IMG/VR virus record: IMGVR_UViG_2703718819_000016 | DNA length: 5,412 bases | Source of the DNA: a virus | Lineage: Duplodnaviria > Heunggongvirae > Uroviricota > Caudoviricetes | Strand: one strand, 5' to 3' | Part shown: piece by piece, positions 1 to 5,412 of the stretch | How positions within the stretch are numbered: position 1 is the first letter of the stretch | Layout: every line of letters starts with the position of its first letter | The notes under the pieces: model-generated | What the model was told of the DNA's origin: nothing | Seen by the model: the letters and a program-made list of their open reading frames with translations, nothing else | The model's database searches: none | Position numbers and translations under genes: made by a program

Positions 1-642
1 CGCTTCCACGGCGTTATTGATTACGCGCTTGCTGAAAGTGGCCCTGTGCTCTGAATAGATCGCCACCATTTCGCGGCTAAGTTCCATTGTGCTGACCGGA
101 CACCATACCCCGCCGCGCCATACGTGAACGATTTCACTTTCAGGATGTACGCAAACGCCATCAAAGCGATCGGCAAGCAGCTGCGCGCGCTCACTGTCCG
201 CCATCTGCGAAAGTTGCACCTTTTGCTTTACCGGAAGCTCAATGACCAGACCATCAGAAAGATTCTGGCGCTCACGGGCCAGATATTCGCGCCAGTTCTC
301 CACCTTCTGACCGTGCATACCATCAGGGTAAAAATTTGCATCCTGTACGCCTGCCGCCGCCAGCTTCTGGCCAATCGCCTTTATCATTACTGGCGCAAGA
401 TATCCGGCCCTGAATATGCGCACGGATTTTCTGCCTTCCGGCACAATTTGCAGCTTATCCAGTTCTGATAACTGCTGCTCCCCAAGCCACACAGGAGGCT
501 CATTATCTCCGGCCATACGCGCATCATGTTCCTGCCATTGTTTCGCGTGTGCCCAGGCATCACTACCCGCAAAAATAATGACTTCTGTTCCTTTGTGTTT
601 TATGCCGCGTGACTGCTGTTTTACGTTCGGTGCCAGTTTCAT
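1..642 (-). CDS. Putative replication protein (primase-like, in the position of P4 alpha); N-terminal 214 codons only, 3' end lies beyond the window start
   Basis: Minus-strand frame is open from ATG at 642-640 to position 1 with no stop (MKLAPNVKQQSRGIKHKGTEVIIFAGSDAWAHAKQW...). SD AGGGG lies 6 nt upstream inside the preceding gene, and the ATG overlaps that gene's TGA (ATGA). Absent from the ORF track because it has no stop in the window. The function is inferred from position at the end of the early operon, not from a recognised catalytic motif. Confidence 0.6.
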   Translation of the reverse strand, partial: MKLAPNVKQQSRGIKHKGTEVIIFAGSDAWAHAKQWQEHDARMAGDNEPPVWLGEQQLSELDKLQIVPEGRKSVRIFRAGYLAPVMIKAIGQKLAAAGVQDANFYPDGMHGQKVENWREYLARERQNLSDGLVIELPVKQKVQLSQMADSERAQLLADRFDGVCVHPESEIVHVWRGGVWCPVSTMELSREMVAIYSEHRATFSKRVINNAVEA

Positions 643-938
643 TTTTTACCCCTGAATCCGTTAATCATGGTTTTCAGCTTCTGGATGTTTGCCCGTGCCC
701 TGGCGTTGCTGGTGGGCACGTTATGCGGCGCGGTCTGTACCAGAGAAAAATCACGCCGGAACTGATAAACAGGCATCACGCAATCATATTCGTAACCTTC
801 ACGGCGGTAAGTTACGCACCGTCCCGCCACGCCCTTAATCATTACCGTGCCGCCGTACTGGTCGCGGTAAATATCACCGCGCGTAAATTTAGGGTGAGTG
901 TTGCCACTGGCAGTTAAGCCAGAATATTTAAGTTTCAT
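639..938 (-). CDS. Hypothetical small protein (99 aa), translationally coupled to the downstream replication gene
   Basis: ATG at 938-936 with GGAG upstream. Its last codons (AGG GGT AAA AAA TGA) supply the SD and overlap the start of the next gene. The overlapping frames are antisense. Confidence 0.6.
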   Translation of the reverse strand: MKLKYSGLTASGNTHPKFTRGDIYRDQYGGTVMIKGVAGRCVTYRREGYEYDCVMPVYQFRRDFSLVQTAPHNVPTSNARARANIQKLKTMINGFRGKK

Positions 939-943
939 TATTT

Positions 944-1177
944 TTATTCTCCGGTGTGGGGCGCTTTATACTGGTCGTGTAATGTCTCTATTTCCTGCAA
1001 CTCATTTATTACAGGCTCAAGAAGCGTTATTAATGCCGTGGCAATTCTTGATTTTTGTTTGTCGCGTTCATTGTCGCCAAGTGTTTCAAGCCATATGCGC
1101 AATATTTCCATCATATTTTCACTGTGAGAAAGTGCAAGAAATGCGCGGTCTATTGTTTCAAGATAAATATCACGCAT
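944..1177 (-). CDS. Hypothetical small protein (77 aa), predicted helical
   Basis: ATG at 1177-1175 preceded by GGGGA; it lies 1 nt after the upstream gene's TAA. The sequence is charged and helical-looking (MRDIYLETIDRAFLALSHSENMMEILRIWLETL...). Confidence 0.6.
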   Translation of the reverse strand: MRDIYLETIDRAFLALSHSENMMEILRIWLETLGDNERDKQKSRIATALITLLEPVINELQEIETLHDQYKAPHTGE

Positions 1178-1178
1178 A

Positions 1179-1400
1179 TTAATCCCCGTCCGTTGTTTTT
1201 CTTAAAACAGCTTCTGTCACGAAATCAGCATAGTTAGCGGCAATATCAAGAATATTTAGCCCTGTATCTCTGTGCTCATCAGTGCAAAGAAAGAAAAAAG
1301 CCACCCGCATAATTTCAGATATTGACGAAAGCGCATCAGCCGCATCATCAGGAACGCCGGAAAATTCTTGTTTCAGGGAATTAAAACGATCATCACGCAT
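1179..1400 (-). CDS. Hypothetical small protein (73 aa); start trimmed from track ORF 1179..1448 to the ATG at 1400-1398
   Basis: The ATG at 1400-1398 is preceded by a G8 tract that can act as SD, and it overlaps the upstream gene's stop (ATGCGTGA), the same geometry as the 2064-2071 junction. The product MRDDRFNSLKQEFSGVPDDAADALSSI... weakly resembles the upstream 73-aa protein. Confidence 0.5.
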   Translation of the reverse strand: MRDDRFNSLKQEFSGVPDDAADALSSISEIMRVAFFFLCTDEHRDTGLNILDIAANYADFVTEAVLRKTTDGD

Positions 1401-1614
1401 AACCCCCCCCATTTTCACAATCAGCAACAAGAATATTTTTAGCGTCATTCAGCGACCGCGTTGCGATGTATCGGATACATTCCAGGGCGAACTGTGTCCG
1501 GTCTTTCTGTTCTTCTCCCTGCGCAAGCTCTGCAGTGCATTCAATATCGATAAGCGCGTGCATCAGCGTAGTGAGCGCGGCGGCTGCTGCGTCCGGTGTG
1601 GTTTTATTGTGCAT
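1393..1614 (-). CDS. Hypothetical small protein (73 aa); start trimmed from track ORF 1393..1644 to the ATG at 1614-1612
   Basis: ATG at 1614-1612 has a strong SD (AGGGGGA, 6-nt spacing) embedded in the last codons of the upstream gene. The frame ends at TGA 1393-1395, just after the G8 tract. Confidence 0.55.
   Translation of the reverse strand: MHNKTTPDAAAAALTTLMHALIDIECTAELAQGEEQKDRTQFALECIRYIATRSLNDAKNILVADCENGGGYA
1403..1410 (-). repeat. Homopolymer tract: C8 on plus strand, G8 in the minus-strand mRNA, at the junction of two overlapping small genes
   Basis: Direct reading: aaCCCCCCCCatt at 1401-1413. Confidence 0.9.
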
Positions 1615-2071
1615 AGGTTTCCCCCTGACGAATACGGGCGACAAAAATCAGATGTGCGTGCGGCAGCTGCGCGCGTGCTTCGCGCTCAGTGGCAGCCGTG
1701 ACGGTGTAAATATCAATGCTGCTGTGGTGGCACTGCATAAAGCGCCAGACAAAGTAAGGGCGTGCGGATACGGCCATGTGAAAGGCTCCCAGATGAATTT
1801 TAAGGAGTCTCGCTACTACGCTGTCAAACATGGTGGCGAGACGTAACAGGGTTGACAGACTGGTCATCTGGAAACCAGCGAGCACAAAGGCTCCCCCGTT
1901 ACGCCCCGCCATAATGCGGGTATGGGTAGGTTTACGGACACAAAAAAACCGCTTATCGGATGTGGGCGGCTGTCCGCCAGATGTATTCAGGCTGTCAAAC
2001 CCGGTCGCCATGTGGGCGACGGGGGAAGCATACAGCCCCGTGATAATTTTTTGCAAGCGGTTTTTACGCAT
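1604..2071 (-). CDS. Two-part protein (155 aa): unique N-terminal ~100 aa fused in frame to a C-terminal ~55-aa domain paralogous to the 65-aa protein upstream (FVWRF...TEREAR...ARIRQG); possibly Ash-like plus Icd-like
   Basis: ATG at 2071-2069 with SD AGGGG; track ORF 1604..2113 trimmed to this start. The C-terminus PYFVWRFMQ...TVTAATEREARAQLP...LIFVARIRQG aligns with 2064..2261. An internal ATG (MAVSARPY) retains a GGGAGCC SD homologous to the RBS of 2064..2261. The family names are from memory and unverified. Confidence 0.6.
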   Translation of the reverse strand: MRKNRLQKIITGLYASPVAHMATGFDSLNTSGGQPPTSDKRFFCVRKPTHTRIMAGRNGGAFVLAGFQMTSLSTLLRLATMFDSVVARLLKIHLGAFHMAVSARPYFVWRFMQCHHSSIDIYTVTAATEREARAQLPHAHLIFVARIRQGETYAQ

Positions 2072-2261
2072 GATGTGACCCCTGGCGAATACGGGCGGCA
2101 AATACAGCAACACAACCGGACGGGCAACGGTTACGCGCTTCGCGTTCCGTCCAGGCGGTTACGTGGATGATTTGAGATTCTCCGGCACTCAGTGCCAGAA
2201 AACGCCACACAAAGGCCGTTTGTGTGTGTACAAGGTGTGGTATATGATTTACAGCAACCAT
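2064..2261 (-). CDS. Small protein (65 aa) with FVWRF...TEREAR...ARIRQG motifs; first gene of the leftward early operon; possibly Icd-like
   Basis: ATG at 2261-2259 with strong SD (AGGAG, 6-nt spacing). It is the paralogue of the C-terminus of 1604..2071 and its stop overlaps the next start (ATGCGTAA). The Icd-like call is from memory and needs a database check. Confidence 0.65.
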   Translation of the reverse strand: MVAVNHIPHLVHTQTAFVWRFLALSAGESQIIHVTAWTEREARNRCPSGCVAVFAARIRQGSHHA

Positions 2262-2330
2262 AACGGCTCCTAGTTTACGTTGTTGGTTAGAAGCCCCGTT
2301 ACTGCTCCTACAGTGCGGGGTTTCGTCGTT
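2217..2330. repeat. Copy 1 of a ~115-bp diverged direct repeat covering the leader, RBS and first ~15 codons of the leftward operon
   Basis: Shares cgtttgtgtgtgta (2217-2230), ccataa and ttggttagaagccc (2283-2296), followed by a GC hairpin, with 2963..3080 in the same order and orientation. Confidence 0.7.
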
Positions 2331-2350
2331 TCTACACCTTGCCTTAATAA

Positions 2351-2404
2351 GGTGTTGAACACCAATTTAAATCGAGGTGTTAAACACGTCAAGTGTTGAA
2401 CACT
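2351..2404. promoter_or_regulatory. Three palindromic operator-like sites (GGTGTTGAACACC 2351-2363, GGTGTTAAACAC 2376-2387, AGTGTTGAACACT 2392-2404) overlapping divergent promoters
   Basis: Three copies of the inverted repeat GTGTT-N-AACAC lie between the leftward operon (start 2261) and the rightward RHH gene (start 2454). Candidate leftward promoter: -35 TTGACG (2392-2387), 17-bp spacer, -10 TAAATT (2369-2364). Candidate rightward promoter: -35 TTGAAC (2396-2401), -10 CATACT (2419-2424). Confidence 0.6.
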
Positions 2405-2453
2405 TATTTTTTTTCCTGCATACTGCATTTGTTTTTTATGAGGGGTGCTCAAC

Positions 2454-2633
2454 ATGGCGACAAAAGCAGTAAACGCAAAATCACAAACAGTTGCGGCAAG
2501 GGTTCCACATGAAGTTATGAACAATGTTGAGGCGGTAAAAATGCCCGGCGAAAGTACAGGGCAGTTTGTTACAGCTGCATTAAAGCGGGAAGTTGAATAC
2601 CGCCAGCGCCGCAAGACCAAAGAATCAGAATAA
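2454..2633 (+). CDS. Arc/Mnt-type ribbon-helix-helix DNA-binding protein (59 aa), candidate repressor of the adjacent operator cluster
   Basis: ATG at 2454 with SD GAGGGG 8 nt upstream (the track's GTG at 2445 sits inside the SD). The RHH pattern is QTVAARVPHEVMNNVEAVKMPGESTGQFVTAALKREV (beta strand, helix, G-x-S turn, helix). It is divergent from the operator-containing promoter region. Confidence 0.6.
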   Translation: MATKAVNAKSQTVAARVPHEVMNNVEAVKMPGESTGQFVTAALKREVEYRQRRKTKESE

Positions 2634-2690
2634 TCACCATCAGCGCCGTGGTGTGAGGAACTCCGGCGCATTGCTTTACAGGGCAGTACC

Positions 2691-2918
2691 ATGACCAACA
2701 ACACACTATCACCAATACAAGACACGCAGACGCAAGATGATGAAATCATCCGGCAAAGGCAGTCAGAAGCCTGCGCCAGACTTGAGGAAGAACTAACCAG
2801 AACAAAAATACCACCACCAGCGCCGCGCTTAGTGCCACCAGAAAAATTTGCCCTTGAAGATTTTGTCGATAAATACCCACGGCGGCTTAAATCCGGCAAA
2901 AACCGACCGCCAGGATGA
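2691..2918 (+). CDS. Hypothetical protein (75 aa): acidic, helical N-terminal half and proline-rich C-terminal half
   Basis: ATG at 2691 with a weak SD (AGGG, 8 nt). It follows the RHH gene after a 57-bp gap containing a GC hairpin (2643-2669). No recognisable domain; it uses several rare codons (AGG, AGA, CTA, ATA). Confidence 0.35.
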   Translation: MTNNTLSPIQDTQTQDDEIIRQRQSEACARLEEELTRTKIPPPAPRLVPPEKFALEDFVDKYPRRLKSGKNRPPG

Positions 2919-2962
2919 GTGCACAAAACCGAACTCTGAAACGGATTATTCCGTTTCCGGGG

Positions 2963-3080
2963 CGTTTGTGTGTGTATAAAGAGTAAGCTATGCTCTTTTA
3001 TAGCCATAATCTTTACCTCAATTAATGGTTTGGTTAGAAGCCCGTTGGTGTTCATAGCGCCGGCGGGCTTTGCTTTTTGT
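2963..3080. repeat. Copy 2 of the ~115-bp diverged direct repeat; carries a relic start (ATG 3007-3005, MAIKEHSLLFIHTQT) homologous to the N-terminus of 2064..2261
   Basis: cgtttgtgtgtgta at 2963-2976 and ttggttagaagccc at 3030-3043. The minus-strand translation from 3007 gives MAIKEHSLLFIHTQT, against MVAVNHIPHLVHTQT for the intact gene; similarity is lost beyond ~2960. Confidence 0.65.
3038..3080 (+). terminator. Hairpin (stems 3038-3044 / 3064-3070) followed by a T-rich tract; possible intrinsic terminator for the upstream plus-strand genes
   Basis: aagcccg...cgggctt stem with a 19-nt loop, then tgctttttgt. The T-run is interrupted, so strength is uncertain. Confidence 0.4.
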
Positions 3081-3089
3081 GTTGATTGT

Positions 3090-3123
3090 ATGTAATGTGT
3101 CACCACACATAAATACATTACAT
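3090..3123. promoter_or_regulatory. 9-bp inverted repeat ATGTAATGT (3090-3098) / ACATTACAT (3115-3123) flanking TGTGTCACCACACA; candidate operator of the second RHH gene
   Basis: A perfect 9-bp inverted repeat with a 16-bp spacer lies immediately upstream of the SD and start of 3138..3317. Confidence 0.5.
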
Positions 3124-3137
3124 GAGGTGTAATTAAC

Positions 3138-3317
3138 GTGTCAACACACAAAAACGAAAGGCGTGGTAATCCTCCGTTCCAGTTCCGTTTAGATCCTGAC
3201 TTACGGGAAAAGATGGAAAAGGCACAACAACATGACGGCGATGATTCTCTTGCTGCCTGGATAAAGCGAATAATCCGCAAAGAATTACAGCAACGCGGCA
3301 TAGAACCCAAAGGGTAA
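3138..3317 (+). CDS. Arc/Mnt-type ribbon-helix-helix repressor-like protein (59 aa, GTG start)
   Basis: GTG at 3138 with SD GAGGTG 7 nt upstream. PPFQFRLDPDLREKMEKAQQHDGDDSLAAWIKRIIRKEL closely follows the Arc/Mnt pattern (P-x-F-x-F-R...L-R-E-K...G-x-S...I). The translation-initiation region is homologous to that of 2454..2633. Not in the ORF track, probably because it is below the length cut-off. Confidence 0.55.
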   Translation: MSTHKNERRGNPPFQFRLDPDLREKMEKAQQHDGDDSLAAWIKRIIRKELQQRGIEPKG

Positions 3318-3412
3318 TTACATTGCCCACCAGCCTGATAGCGGCTATCATTCCCGTGCTTATGTTTGGGATCACATACACATAAGGCGCAGCAGGTTAA
3401 TTGTTCACAAGG

Positions 3413-3440
3413 GCGTTCCGGCAACGGGGCGCTTTTTGTT
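3413..3440 (+). terminator. Intrinsic terminator-like hairpin (gcgttccg-gcaa-cggggcgc) followed by TTTTTGTT
   Basis: 8-bp stem with two G-T wobble pairs and a 4-nt loop, then a T-run. It lies ~95 bp downstream of the 3138..3317 stop and between the convergent genes 3138..3317 and alpA. Confidence 0.5.
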
Positions 3441-3467
3441 ATGTTCATCGTGTTATGCCTCACACCA

Positions 3468-3674
3468 TTACGCAGCCGTTCCGCGTGCTTCCTGCTCACG
3501 TTCTTTCATCCATGCGATTACGTCTTCCTCATACCATCCGCGACGGCGTAAACCAACGCGAAAACCCTGCGGAAATTCTCCGGCGTTGATCATGCTTTGA
3601 AGCGTGCTGTCTGCCTTGATGTGGATAAGTTTTTTTACTTCCTGGCGAAAGATGACTTTTTTGATTGCTTCCAT
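3468..3674 (-). CDS. alpA: AlpA-family phage regulatory protein (helix-turn-helix; excision and transcription regulator)
   Basis: 68 aa, IFRQEVKKLIHIKADSTLQSMINAGEFPQGFRVGLRRRGWYEEDVIAWMKERE, matches the AlpA/Vis family pattern (E-V...S-x-x-T-I-x-x-x-I-x-x-G-x-F-P...W-x-x-x-E-V-x-x-W). ATG at 3674-3672 with SD AAGGT. Typical position downstream of a P4-type integrase. Confidence 0.85.
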   Translation of the reverse strand: MEAIKKVIFRQEVKKLIHIKADSTLQSMINAGEFPQGFRVGLRRRGWYEEDVIAWMKEREQEARGTAA

Positions 3675-4170: not shown

Positions 4171-5412
4171 CTAAACGGCTCGGATACCCCTTTTACCACT
4201 GGCGAGGGTTACGCCCGTCGCCGCAGCCTCGACAAATTCGCCCCACCAGCGCATAAGCACCACGCGTTTTTCTATGTAGTTGCTCCGGTTGTATGCCCGT
4301 CTCACTTCGTTAGTGTCGACGTGGGCAAGTGCGGCCTCGATTACGTCCGGCTCGAATCCTTCCTCGTTCGCTGCTGTACTGAATATGGCGCGTAATCCAT
4401 GAGACACCAGCACGCCAGCGAACCCCATGCGTCGTAATGCTGCGTTTGCTGTCTGGCTGTTCATTGGCTGCCGTGGGTCTTTCAGACTCGGGAAAACATA
4501 ATCGCGGTGGTGGCTGATTGGTTTCATGGCCTCCAGCACCGCCATAGCCTGACCGGAAAGTGGGATAACGTGATCCCTGCGCATCTTCATGCGTCCGGCG
4601 GGTATCGTCCAGCGTTGCGCGTCCAGGTCGATTTCATCCCACCGCGTTGATGACGCTTCGGCGGGACGGGTTACGGTCAGTAACTGCCATTCAATCAGTA
4701 ATCTGGTCTGCCGTTCTGTTGCCGATACTGATAAAGCCTGCATAAGCTCCGGCAACTGTTCGGGGCGGATTGTTGGCATATGTTTTTTTACAGGGGAGGG
4801 GAACGCCTTACGCACATTCATAGCCGGATTGGCATCAATCAGCCCACTGTTGGCGGCGTAATCCATTACCTCATTAACGCGCTGTAAAACCCGTTTGAGT
4901 GTTTCCAGGTTGCCGCGCTCCTTGATGGGGGTAAGCACCTCAACGAACCTGCGAGCGGTCAGGGTGTCTATTGGGGTGTTGCCGATGAACGGGAATACAT
5001 ATTTATCCAGCGATCGCCAGATGTCTTTAATCGTGTTGGGGGCCAGATTCTGGCTGATTTTCACCTGGTACCATGCCGCCGCCACATTTTCGAACGTGTT
5101 CCCTTGTCTTCGGGCCTCTGCCTCTCGTTTTTTCTTCTCATGGCCCTGCGGGTCAGTTCCGGCACTGATTAACGCTCTGTACTCGCTACGGCGTTTTCTG
5201 GCATCAGCCAGGGAAACATCATCAAGCGATCCAAAACTCAGCAATATTCTTTTTTTGTCCGATGGCCGGTAGTAGGAAAATCGCCAGAGTTTTGATCCGG
5301 ACGGTTTGACCAGGAGAAAAAGCCCTCCGCCGTCCTGTAGGGTGTATTCCTTTTCCGCTGGTCTGGCTGCTTTGATCTGCACCGTGGTTAATGGGGGTGT
5401 TTTTCTCGCCAT
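4171..5412 (-). CDS. int: P4-type tyrosine integrase (site-specific recombinase, IntA-like), full length 413 aa
   Basis: The N-terminus MARKTPPLT...GSKLWRFSYYRP matches the P4/CP4-57 IntA arm-binding region. The C-terminus has catalytic-domain hallmarks (…LLTVTRPAEA…RDHVIPLS…HGLR…VRRAYNRSNY). The start ATG is at 5412-5410, the window edge. Confidence 0.95.
   Translation of the reverse strand: MARKTPPLTTVQIKAARPAEKEYTLQDGGGLFLLVKPSGSKLWRFSYYRPSDKKRILLSFGSLDDVSLADARKRRSEYRALISAGTDPQGHEKKKREAEARRQGNTFENVAAAWYQVKISQNLAPNTIKDIWRSLDKYVFPFIGNTPIDTLTARRFVEVLTPIKERGNLETLKRVLQRVNEVMDYAANSGLIDANPAMNVRKAFPSPVKKHMPTIRPEQLPELMQALSVSATERQTRLLIEWQLLTVTRPAEASSTRWDEIDLDAQRWTIPAGRMKMRRDHVIPLSGQAMAVLEAMKPISHHRDYVFPSLKDPRQPMNSQTANAALRRMGFAGVLVSHGLRAIFSTAANEEGFEPDVIEAALAHVDTNEVRRAYNRSNYIEKRVVLMRWWGEFVEAAATGVTLASGKRGIRAV

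What the first reader, a model, noticed from the sequence alone, without database searches (positions are those of the whole stretch)
1604..2261. Tandem paralogues of a small TEREAR-motif protein, one fused in frame to a ~100-aa N-terminal extension
The 65-aa protein (…FVWRFLALSAGESQIIHVTAWTEREARNRCP…VFAARIRQG) and the C-terminus of the 155-aa protein (…YFVWRFMQCHHSSIDIYTVTAATEREARAQLP…IFVARIRQG) are clear paralogues. The internal ATG at MAVSARPY in the longer gene still carries a GGGAGCC SD homologous to the RBS of the short gene. This implies either a gene fusion or two isoforms (155 aa and ~57 aa) from one reading frame. From memory these resemble the 'host cell division inhibitor Icd-like' and 'Ash-family' proteins of P4-like islands, whose functions are unknown; candidates for helper-phage or host manipulation.
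Basis: partly seen in the sequence, partly recalled or inferred. Interest (0 to 1): 0.6.

Follow-up and report, generated by a model that had tools for sequence, protein, structure and literature searches.

The report
Antisense-RNA immunity switch inside Icd gene
The two small paralogous proteins are real relatives of phage P1's cell-division inhibitor Icd, but the "100-aa extension" of the longer one is a known phage immunity cassette (a C4 antisense RNA, its promoter and its target sites) lying inside an open reading frame, as in the eta/kil genes of satellite phage P4.

Summary
The 65-aa protein (2064-2261, -) and the C-terminus of the 155-aa ORF (1604-2071, -) are paralogues: 49% identity, E=2e-11, and both match NCBIfam NF033153 "Icd-like". 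The internal ATG (1777) has a GGGAG Shine-Dalgarno sequence.

The extension is not a protein domain. It holds, in order:
- a promoter collinear with P1's P51b;
- the a1/b1 target hairpins (Rfam c4-a1b1);
- a U-run;
- a C4 antisense RNA gene (1829-1916, 72.6 bits against a threshold of 45);
- the a2/b2 targets, with b2 covering the SD of the internal start.

Among relatives, the C4 loop and its targets covary perfectly, with seven b alleles and two a alleles. Outside those sites the extension shows no third-codon-position excess. AlphaFold gives it no confident fold (pLDDT <50).

The frame is nevertheless kept open. This is so in 19 of 20 unique relatives and in at least 120 protein clusters. 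Indels are compensated, and no variable-site stop triplet is in frame. The ORF's ATG overlaps the stop of icd#1.

This matches P4, where Kil (65 aa, Icd-like) is the nested end of Eta, which contains the CI RNA. The "two isoforms" reading is therefore plausible but untested here. It is a new member of a known kind and of modest interest.

The parts
2064..2261 (-). icd#1: 65-aa Icd-like protein with its own SD (GGAG 2270-2267). No C4 target lies near its RBS.
   Evidence: ORF. NF033153 64.8 bits. Target motifs occur only at 1787-1796, 1977-1984, 1821-1828 and 1992-1999. Third-codon-position excess among relatives, pi .188/.161/.319.
1604..2071 (-). 155-aa eta-like ORF. Its ATG (2071-2069) overlaps the icd#1 stop (2066-2064). 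The first 98 codons overlie the RNA cassette and the last 57 are icd#2.
   Evidence: The frame is open in 19/20 unique relatives, and at least 120 90%-identity clusters are 152-155 aa long. Residues 1-104 have pLDDT <50.
1604..1777 (-). icd#2 (kil-like): 57-aa Icd-like protein from the internal ATG 1777-1775, SD GGGAG 1790-1786.
   Evidence: NF033153 55.1 bits at residues 9-51. 52% identity to P1 Icd, E=3e-13. pi by codon position .104/.114/.206. AF2 pLDDT 78 with a beta-beta-alpha-beta fold.
2027..2056 (-). Internal promoter-like site TTGCAA (2056-2051), 18-nt spacer, TATGCT (2032-2027), inside the 155-aa ORF. It is positionally equivalent to P1 P1c4/P51b and P4 PLE.
   Evidence: Read from the sequence. 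Collinear with the annotated P1 promoter in the alignment. Nearly invariant in relatives. With 8/12 consensus matches it falls below the scan threshold. Activity was not tested.
1984..2033 (-). c4-a1b1 element: hairpin 2020-2004 and hairpin 2003-1988 carrying a1 (TTTGACAG, 1999-1992) in its loop.
   Evidence: Rfam RF03163 46.8 bits, threshold 46.7. Fold.
1977..1983 (-). b1 site CATCTGG (upstream target of the C4 loop), overlapping the 5' arm of hairpin 1978-1965.
   Evidence: Complementary to the C4 loop. Covaries with it in 20/20 unique IMG/VR relatives. The b'-b1 duplex is -10.6 kcal/mol.
1942..2020 (-). isrK/seqA-like stretch ending in a U7 run (1948-1942); a terminator-like element.
   Evidence: Rfam isrK RF01394 35.2 bits, below its threshold of 50. 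Homologous elements in P4 and L001 pass the threshold at 60.8 and 61.8 bits. The U-run is conserved.
1829..1916 (-). C4-type antisense RNA gene; b' loop UUCCAGAUGA at 1873-1864, single-stranded a' CUGUCAA at 1858-1852.
   Evidence: Rfam RF01695 72.6 bits, threshold 45, E=2.7e-13. MFE fold reproduces the family structure at -47 kcal/mol. 97.5% of cells paired, 14/27 pairs with double-sided changes, 0/500 shuffles as good.
1821..1828 (-). a2 site TTTGACAG, directly 3' of C4.
   Evidence: Same position and sequence as the annotated P1 a2. a'-a2 alleles matched in 100/100 long-form homologues.
1787..1796 (-). b2 site UCAUCUGGGA, overlapping the SD of icd#2.
   Evidence: 12-bp duplex with the C4 loop, -18.3 kcal/mol, covering GGGAG. 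Seven alleles covary with the loop. Position equals P1 b2.
2352..2403 (-). Upstream promoter-like site TTGACG-17-TAAATT (2392-2364) flanked and overlapped by three GTGTT(G/A)AACAC repeats. It is the candidate regulated promoter for transcripts that carry icd#1 and the start of the 155-aa ORF.
   Evidence: Consensus matches only; function inferred.
1393..1614 (-). Next gene of the operon (73 aa, ATG 1614). It overlaps the icd#2 stop by 11 nt, and the operon continues to DUF4222 (639-938) and the primase (<642).
   Evidence: plus RefSeq annotation of relatives.

Best explanation
The region is the immunity switch of a P4-like/PICI-like satellite island. It has the P1 immI design (c4-icd) packaged in the P4 eta/kil nested-gene layout.

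Shown:
- Inside the 155-aa ORF lies a promoter collinear with P1's P51b. Downstream of it lie, in order, the a1/b1 target hairpins, a U-run, the ~88-nt C4 antisense RNA, then a2 and b2, with b2 covering the SD of the internal icd#2 start.
- The C4 loop (b') and single-stranded segment (a') are complementary to both target sets and covary with them.

Inferred by homology with P1 and P4:
- C4 is processed out of the leader and pairs with a2/b2. This blocks ribosome binding to icd#2. Through loss of coupled translation and transcriptional polarity it silences the downstream replication genes (primase). That is immunity.
- Transcripts from the upstream, probably repressor-controlled, promoter carry icd#1. 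Its stop overlaps the ATG of the 155-aa ORF, so ribosomes run on through the whole cassette. As shown for P4 Eta, translation through the cassette would prevent C4 action and termination and make these transcripts immunity-insensitive.
- The long product is a by-product: an unstructured leader on an Icd domain.
- The Icd-like domain of both paralogues (beta-beta-alpha-beta, about 45 aa) most likely binds FtsZ and blocks division, as shown for P1 Icd residues 12-51.
For: RNA elements: C4 72.6 bits; a1b1 46.8; C4 at a fixed 52 nt before icd#2 in all close relatives; structure covariation; folds and duplexes.

Target covariation: 20/20 unique sequences matched at a1/a'/a2 and b1/b'/b2; 7 b alleles and 2 a alleles, reassorting; a'-a2 matched in 100/100; at least 13 loop patches.

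Collinearity with annotated P1 immI: (73% nt identity).

P4 homology: CI inside Eta; Kil is the last 65 aa; the Eta ATG overlaps the stop of the alpA homologue; Kil matches NF033153 at 76 bits. The P4 mechanism is as summarised in PMC10111431.

Extension is not protein-like: pi .022/.045/.029 against .104/.114/.206 for icd#2; L009 group reads about 33 codons in another frame; pLDDT <50; no Pfam match.

Frame kept: 19/20; indels compensated in two different ways; 0 of 11 variable-site stop triplets in frame; at least 120 clusters of 152-155 aa; 27 of 150 50%-identity representatives have a C4-overlapping stretch in frame with Icd; same for the upstream cassette in 7 of 8 loci.

Icd function: PMC11897509.
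Against: No expression data exist for this element. Promoter activity, C4 processing, and translation of either isoform are all inferred.

In P1 the same frame carries two stops, so an open frame is not needed for a C4-icd switch to work.

One relative (L010) has the frame broken by a 1-nt deletion in the U-run.

The close relatives are only modestly diverged outside the a/b sites, so part of the frame conservation could be inheritance.

The database of predicted proteins is biased toward long ORFs.

The isrK-like terminator scores below the Rfam threshold, and its stem is weak.

FtsZ binding has been shown only for P1 Icd, which is 52% identical over 46 aa.
Confidence: 0.75

Rival explanations
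1. The long ORF is never translated. It is an accidental open frame over a constrained RNA cassette that gene callers (PGAP included) extend to the farthest ATG. The only real gene is the 57-aa icd#2, as in P1.
For: There is no codon-position signature in the extension, no confident fold and no Pfam match. P1 has in-frame stops in the homologous stretch and functions. L010 has a broken frame. Two of three frames are open over about 100 nt of this sequence anyway.
Against: Indels at b1 are always compensated, by two independent routes. None of 11 distinct stop triplets created in the variable sites is in frame (roughly p~0.01, and the events are not fully independent). The ATGnnTAA overlap with icd#1 is kept in all variants. 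The same in-frame layout recurs in 50%-identity representatives and in the upstream cassette. P4 Eta translation is reported experimentally (Forti 1999, via PMC10111431).
Confidence: 0.25
2. It is a true fusion protein: the N-terminal ~100 aa is a functional 'Ash'-type domain (Bro-network regulatory module) that modifies or targets the Icd domain.
For: Pfam defines a Phage_ASH family that matches P4 Eta 22-146 and the upstream cassette ORF of L001. 21 of 150 family representatives show Phage_ASH followed by Icd in one ORF. PMC10111431 treats Phage_ASH as a Bro-network domain.
Against: The window's extension does not match Phage_ASH. Four natural variants read about 33 codons in a different frame. 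Silent sites are as constrained as replacement sites. pLDDT is 24-34 across residues 1-100. The Phage_ASH match coincides with the seqA/isrK and CI/C4 RNA genes, so that family's conservation is explained by the RNA.
Confidence: 0.05
3. The upstream a1/b1-U-run element works as an IsrK-type small RNA. A short terminated transcript would act in trans to open the structure of the read-through mRNA and activate translation of the ORF over the C4-like region and of downstream genes, as in Salmonella Gifsy-1. It would not be only a target or decoy of C4.
For: Rfam isrK matches 1942-2020 (35.2 bits, E=5e-5), and homologous elements in P4 and L001 pass the threshold. In Gifsy-1, translation of orf45 over the STnc1160/C4-like region is required for the downstream gene, and its amino-acid sequence is not conserved (PMC4825925).
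Against: The match is below the gathering score. The terminator stem is weak in this allele. The cassette is much closer to P1 immI (73% nt identity), where a1/b1 are described as C4 target sites. a1/b1 are mismatched to C4 in about 16% of long-form homologues, which suggests a looser role.
Confidence: 0.2

Closest known systems
Phage P1 immI operon (P51b - a1 b1 - c4 - a2 b2 - icd - ant1/2)
   Same: The order and spacing of promoter, a1/b1 hairpins, U-run, C4 RNA and a2/b2 are collinear with P1, with b2 on the icd RBS. Nucleotide identity from the first hairpin to the icd ATG is 73%. The a site (TTGACAG) is identical. The Icd domain is 52% identical. The gene after icd overlaps its end (translational coupling).
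   Different: P1 has two in-frame stops between c4 and icd, so it has no long ORF. The window's b specificity differs (CATCTGG against GTTAGTG). The downstream cargo is small ORFs, DUF4222 and a primase rather than the antirepressor Ant. An extra Icd paralogue sits upstream and is coupled to the long ORF.
Satellite phage P4 immunity region (PLL/PLE, seqA - CI RNA - seqC, nested eta/kil; Forti et al. 1999)
   Same: An Icd-like 65-aa Kil forms the C-terminal end of a longer ORF (Eta, 199 aa) that contains the constitutive promoter, seqA and the CI RNA (Rfam C4). The Eta ATG overlaps the stop of the upstream gene. The operon continues to the primase. It is the same type of element: integrase, AlpA-like gene and primase.
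   Different: The upstream coupling partner is an Icd paralogue instead of the AlpA homologue Vis/ORF88. The RNA cassette sequence is P1-like (P4 CI scores 38.6 bits against 94.5 for P1 with the model built on the window type). The extension is not recognised by Pfam Phage_ASH. P4's Rho-dependent timm mechanism has not been demonstrated here.
Salmonella Gifsy-1 isrK-orf45-anrP locus (PMC4825925)
   Same: An IsrK/seqA-like element with a terminator is followed by a C4-like RNA region (STnc1160) overlapped by an ORF. That ORF's translation matters, but its amino-acid sequence is not conserved. It is coupled to the downstream gene.
   Different: There the ORF ends at the start of the next gene and is not fused to an Icd domain. 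The regulatory logic shown is activation by the short sRNA. The window's isrK match is sub-threshold.

Membership tests
Icd-like host cell division inhibitor (NCBIfam NF033153; P1 Icd, P4 Kil) | Match to the 48-position family profile above the curated cut-off (25 bits) | tested here: met
   icd#1 64.8 bits and the 155-aa ORF 51.4 bits. The 57-aa form scores 55.1 bits. P1 Icd 12-51 and P4 Kil 12-59 match the same profile.
Icd-like host cell division inhibitor (NCBIfam NF033153; P1 Icd, P4 Kil) | Small beta-beta-alpha-beta core corresponding to P1 Icd residues 12-51 | tested here: met
   AF2 model of the 57-aa form: E9-16, E21-28, H31-36, E44-50, pLDDT 78. PMC11897509 describes three strands and one small helix for Icd 12-51.
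Icd-like host cell division inhibitor (NCBIfam NF033153; P1 Icd, P4 Kil) | Binds FtsZ, blocks Z-ring formation, causes filamentation | not testable with these tools
   Shown only for P1 Icd (PMC11897509). Here it is inferred from 52% identity over the core.
C4 antisense RNA (Rfam RF01695; P1/P7 C4, P4 CI) | Covariance-model score above the gathering threshold (45 bits), full-length match | tested here: met
   72.6 bits, model positions 1-87/87, E=2.7e-13 at 1829-1916 (-).
C4 antisense RNA (Rfam RF01695; P1/P7 C4, P4 CI) | Structure supported by compensatory changes | tested here: met
   27 distinct sequences, 97.5% of cells paired, 14/27 pairs changed on both sides, 0/500 shuffles as good, slid controls 36-50% paired. 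Caveat: the alignment was fitted to the model.
C4 antisense RNA (Rfam RF01695; P1/P7 C4, P4 CI) | Two short segments (a', b') complementary to target pairs upstream (a1, b1) and downstream (a2, b2) in the same transcript, with b2 at the RBS of the next gene | tested here: met
   Coordinates, duplexes, three-way covariation across 20 unique relatives.
C4 antisense RNA (Rfam RF01695; P1/P7 C4, P4 CI) | Stable processed ~77-nt RNA that confers immunity in trans | not testable with these tools
   No expression data are available.
P4-type nested eta/kil genes | Short Icd/Kil-like gene is the in-frame 3' part of a longer ORF that contains the constitutive promoter and the immunity RNA | tested here: met
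   Window. P4.
P4-type nested eta/kil genes | Start of the long ORF translationally coupled to the upstream gene and reachable only from an upstream promoter | tested here: inconclusive
   The ATG/stop overlap ATGCGTAA is present and conserved, and the internal promoter lies downstream of that ATG. The upstream promoter is only a consensus match. Coupling was not tested.
P4-type nested eta/kil genes | Both products translated; translation of the long form prevents immunity-specific termination | not testable with these tools
   Only indirect evidence: frame maintenance.
Ash protein family (Pfam PF10554 Phage_ASH) | Match to the Pfam profile above the gathering score (26 bits) | tested here: not met
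   No Pfam match at E<=1 for the 155-aa ORF. The profile does match P4 Eta 22-146 (82.4 bits) and L001 ORF210 65-158 (43.3 bits), in both cases over the seqA/isrK plus CI/C4 genes.

The most novel reading that the evidence does not exclude
The reading frame across a structured antisense-RNA gene may be maintained purely for ribosome transit, not for the peptide. The same ~300 nt would then have to satisfy RNA folding, three-way base-pairing of hypervariable specificity sites and stop-codon avoidance all at once. On this reading, satellites diversify and stack such cassettes as a combinatorial immunity code: two a alleles and at least seven to thirteen b alleles, with some relatives carrying two different C4 cassettes in series, each embedded in an ORF ending in an Icd domain. 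The Pfam 'Ash protein family' would be the translation shadow of the seqA/CI RNA genes rather than a protein domain. The window's single-cassette, two-icd layout would be a deletion derivative of the two-cassette form.
Probability: 0.4. Interest if true: 0.5.

Novelty: new member of a known kind. Interest (0 to 1): 0.3.

Why it matters
It corrects the reading of a widely propagated annotation. RefSeq names the 155-aa ORF an "Icd-like protein", and related stretches "ash family protein", without showing the C4 RNA, its promoter or its targets.

It links three literatures that describe the same module: P1 immI, P4 immunity with eta/kil, and Salmonella IsrK.

The natural allele series gives a ready-made map of the specificity determinants. 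The C4 loop and the RBS-proximal target are always matched. The upstream target is sometimes swapped. This map could be used to predict cross-immunity among the P4-like/PICI satellites, whose sequences are found in about one in six complete E. coli genomes (895 of 5426).

The biology itself is known, so the value is annotation and comparative detail rather than a new mechanism.

Tried and rejected
- Pfam on both proteins gave nothing. PHROGs gave only families labelled "transcriptional repressor" or unknown. That label probably descends from the old P4 "cI gene product" annotation; this is my inference.
The single genome-contig scan returned only 4 distant loci without C4.
- The P4 Kil scan of viral contigs returned 80 nearly identical loci of little comparative use.
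- Two literature searches were wasted on unspecific terms. Forti et al. 1999 is not held, so the P4 mechanism is cited through PMC10111431.
- A Foldseek search of the Icd model against the PDB found no match at E<=0.001; the best was E=0.64.
- The idea that C4 also targets icd#1 was rejected, because there is no a or b motif near its RBS.
- I considered that C4 pairing to b1 flips an antiterminator (hairpin 1978-1965) into an intrinsic terminator before the U-run. The alternative stem is only 4-6 bp with a 13-nt loop, so I do not rely on it.
- Many long database proteins with a C-terminal Icd domain (for example P0001, P0002, P0009) are open antisense frames over the divergent small genes, not evidence for fusions.
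Full report
**1. Context**

The window is part of an integrative island. It carries an integrase (4171-5412, -), an AlpA-like HTH gene (3468-3674, -) and three small plus-strand genes (2445-3317). A minus-strand operon then runs from about 2390 down to a primase gene at the left edge. The AlpA-like and DUF4222 assignments come from Pfam.

RefSeq relatives sit next to tRNA-Pro/yejM in E. coli. They are annotated integrase / HTH regulator / Icd-like x2 / DUF4222 / DNA primase. This is the layout of P4-like or PICI-type satellites. PMC10111431 divides such elements into Integration, Bro, Replication and Late zones.

**2. The observation**

Both ORFs exist as described.
- BLASTP aligns the 65-aa protein with residues 107-154 of the 155-aa ORF: 49% identity, E=2e-11.
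- Both match NCBIfam NF033153 "host cell division inhibitor Icd-like" well above the cut-off.
- The internal ATG (1777-1775) is preceded by GGGAGCC, and the first gene's ATG (2261) by GGAGCC.
- The stop of the first gene overlaps the ATG of the long ORF (ATGCGTAA, 2071-2064).

**3. What the "extension" contains**

An Rfam scan finds three elements inside codons 1-98 of the long ORF, all on the same strand:
- a full-length C4 antisense RNA at 1829-1916 (72.6 bits, threshold 45);
- the c4-a1b1 target element at 1984-2033 (46.8 bits, threshold 46.7);
- a sub-threshold isrK-like match at 1942-2020, ending in a U7 run.

The stretch is collinear with the annotated immI region of phage P1, and 73% identical in nucleotides from the first hairpin to the icd ATG. 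The P1 order is promoter P51b, a1, b1, C4, a2, b2, icd.

I use the P1 names for the window's sites:

| Element | Window coordinates |
|---|---|
| -35 TTGCAA | 2056-2051 |
| -10 TATGCT | 2032-2027 |
| a1 TTTGACAG (in a hairpin loop) | 1999-1992 |
| b1 CATCTGG | 1983-1977 |
| C4 b' loop | 1873-1864 |
| C4 a' segment | 1858-1852 |
| a2 TTTGACAG | 1828-1821 |
| b2 UCAUCUGGGA | 1796-1787 |

b2 overlaps the SD GGGAG of the internal start.

C4 alone folds into the family structure (-47 kcal/mol). The b'-b2 duplex has 12 bp, -18.3 kcal/mol, and includes the SD.

**4. Comparative evidence that the RNA system is real**

*Placement and structure.* IMG/VR loci found with the 57-aa protein alone all carry C4 at a fixed 52 nt before the icd#2 start. 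Across 27 distinct C4 sequences, including P1, P4 and a second cassette type, 97.5% of base-pair cells are paired. Fourteen of 27 pairs change on both sides, and no shuffle does as well. The caveat is that this alignment was fitted to the model.

*Specificity sites.* In 20 unique close relatives the three b sites occur as seven alleles:
- CATCTGG
- AAATTGG
- CTACAG
- CTGTAG
- GCAAAG
- CTTTGG
- ACATAG

The three a sites occur as two alleles (TTGACAG, TTAGCAG). Every sequence is matched among upstream target, C4 and downstream target, and the a and b alleles reassort.

*Larger protein sample.* Among 100 long-form proteins from the protein database, read at the protein level:
- a' and a2 are matched in 100 of 100;
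- a1 is mismatched in 16;
- loop patches pair tightly with the RBS-proximal patch and more loosely with the upstream one;
- at least 13 loop patches exist.

The specificity unit is therefore C4 plus a2/b2.

**5. Is the extension a protein?**

*Evidence against a protein domain:*

| Region (27 unique sequences) | Nucleotide diversity (pi) at codon positions 1/2/3 |
|---|---|
| icd#2 | .104 / .114 / .206 |
| icd#1 | .188 / .161 / .319 |
| extension without the a/b sites | .022 / .045 / .029 |
| a/b sites (all positions pooled) | .26 |

- The extension has no third-position excess, and its silent sites are about sevenfold more constrained than those of icd#2.
- Four variants (L009, L013, L016, L034) read about 33 codons in a different frame because of a -1/+1 indel pair.
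- AlphaFold2 with 122 sequences gives pLDDT 24-34 for residues 1-100 and 80-85 for the Icd core.
- Pfam has no match.

*Evidence that the frame is nonetheless kept open:*
- 19 of 20 unique relatives keep the frame to the same ATG. The exception is a 1-nt deletion in the U-run.
- The -1 at b1 is compensated either 18 nt downstream (12 variants) or inside the C4 loop (4 variants).
- None of the 11 distinct stop triplets created in the variable sites is in frame.
- The ATGnnTAA overlap with icd#1 is retained.
- At least 120 clusters at 90% identity are 152-155 aa long, at 72-95% identity to the query.
- In a search of 1.84 billion representatives the family is small (232 hits). The domain is C-terminal in 134 of the top 150.
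- 21 of those 150 have a Phage_ASH stretch in frame and 6 more have the window-type extension in frame.
- Many other long forms are only antisense frames over the divergent genes.
- In relatives with a second, upstream cassette (isrK plus a divergent C4), that cassette also lies in a 185-466-aa ORF in frame with icd#1 in 7 of 8 loci.
- In P1 the frame has two stops.

**6. The P4 precedent**

In P4 the old "cI gene product" ORF contains the CI RNA (Rfam C4, 8420-8507). Its last 65 residues are Kil, which matches NF033153 at 76 bits. The whole frame is open from an ATG at 8767 that overlaps the stop of the alpA homologue.

PMC10111431, citing Forti et al. 1999, states the following:
- the constitutive promoter is internal to eta;
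- its transcript is terminated through the CI and seqA interactions and yields CI;
- Kil is a truncated Eta;
- full Eta is made only from an upstream late promoter and is coupled to the alpA homologue;
- Eta translation prevents termination.

Pfam Phage_ASH matches exactly the Eta stretch that overlies seqA and CI. The window's 155-aa ORF is the positional homologue of eta, with a P1-like RNA cassette and an Icd paralogue as the upstream coupling partner. A further parallel is Salmonella orf45: translation over a C4-like region is needed for the next gene, while its amino-acid sequence is not conserved (PMC4825925).

**7. Protein function**

P1 Icd inhibits growth, blocks the Z ring and binds FtsZ. 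Residues 12-51 suffice (PMC11897509). NF033153 covers exactly P1 residues 12-51 and residues 9-51 of icd#2. icd#2 is 52% identical to P1 Icd over that core. The 57-aa model is beta-beta-alpha-beta, in line with the paper's description. No solved structure resembles it. FtsZ inhibition is therefore the most likely activity of both paralogues, by inference.

**8. Mechanism proposed**

*Shown:* the anatomy, the complementarity and the covariation.

*Inferred from P1 and P4:*
- The internal promoter makes a leader from which C4 is processed.
- C4 pairs with a2/b2, occludes the icd#2 SD and, through coupling and polarity, keeps the replication genes off. The next gene overlaps the icd#2 stop by 11 nt.
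- Transcripts from the upstream promoter carry icd#1. That promoter is a consensus match at 2392-2364 among three GTGTT(G/A)AACAC repeats.
- Ribosomes terminating at 2064 restart at 2071 and translate through the cassette, overriding immunity.

The window has one RNA cassette and two icd genes. Relatives such as L001 and L027 have the layout icd 5' fragment - seqA/C4up - icd#1 - a1b1/C4 - icd#2. The window's icd#1 equals the 5' fragment joined to the 3' part of their icd#1 at ...LALSAGE|SQIIHV... This is consistent with deletion, or the reverse insertion, by recombination between the repeated icd 5' segments.

**9. Verdict**

The finding is real and was correctly recognised as Icd-like. The extension, however, is a known antisense-RNA immunity cassette inside an eta/kil-type nested ORF.

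This is a new member of a known kind. It has some new comparative detail: the allele series, the compensated frame and the Icd paralogue as coupling partner. Parts of it occur in 895 of 5426 complete E. coli genomes, and the full arrangement in 68. Interest is modest.

Noticed in passing
window 2352-2403: Three operator-like repeats, GTGTTGAACAC (2352, 2393) and GTGTTAAACAC (about 2377), flank and overlap the predicted promoter TTGACG-17-TAAATT (2392-2364, -). They lie between the minus-strand operon and the divergent small gene at 2445-2633. This looks like a repressor-controlled divergent promoter region.
   Followed up: partly
window 2960-3075 (-) and 2283-2296 / 3030-3043: There is a second copy of the icd#1 leader (hairpin plus CTTCTAACCAA, with an exact 14-nt repeat TTGGTTAGAAGCCC). 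It is followed by a truncated icd-like 5' fragment (MAIKEHSLLFIHTQT...). The same hairpin reads as a terminator for the plus-strand gene 2691-2918 (3037-3071). It is probably a recombination scar of module exchange.
   Followed up: partly
window 2270-3499 (-): A 409-aa open frame runs antisense to the three plus-strand genes. In other genomes the equivalent frame continues into an Icd-like domain and is called as a 250-370-aa protein (P0001, P0002, P0009, with no Pfam domain). These long 'Icd-like' proteins look like spurious gene calls.
   Followed up: partly
L001 3557-3970 (and L009, L017, L022, L025, L027, L034, L036 at about 1883-1972): Many relatives carry a second, divergent C4 RNA plus a threshold-passing isrK element upstream of icd#1. 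RefSeq annotates that stretch as an 'ash family protein' pseudogene. Pfam Phage_ASH matches coincide with the seqA/isrK and C4/CI RNA genes, in P4 Eta as well, so the Ash family may largely reflect RNA conservation.
   Followed up: partly
Protein database, long-form homologues (P0151-P0270): C4 a' and the downstream a2 are matched in 100 of 100 proteins, but the upstream a1 is mismatched in 16. b1 is likewise looser than b2. This suggests crossovers between the upstream target and C4, and a less strict role for a1/b1.
   Followed up: partly
window 639-1644 (-): The operon downstream of icd#2 is a chain of small ORFs with overlapping or abutting stop and start codons (ATG 1614 against stop 1606-1604, and so on down to DUF4222 at 639-938 and the primase start near 642). 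None of the three small proteins has a Pfam match. A G8 run (1403-1410) lies in the 3' end of the 73-aa gene.
   Followed up: no
PHROGs phrog_1743 and phrog_6196: Icd-like proteins fall in PHROG families labelled 'transcriptional repressor'. This probably descends from the pre-1995 annotation of the P4 ORF as the 'cI gene product', before the immunity factor was shown to be an RNA.
   Followed up: no
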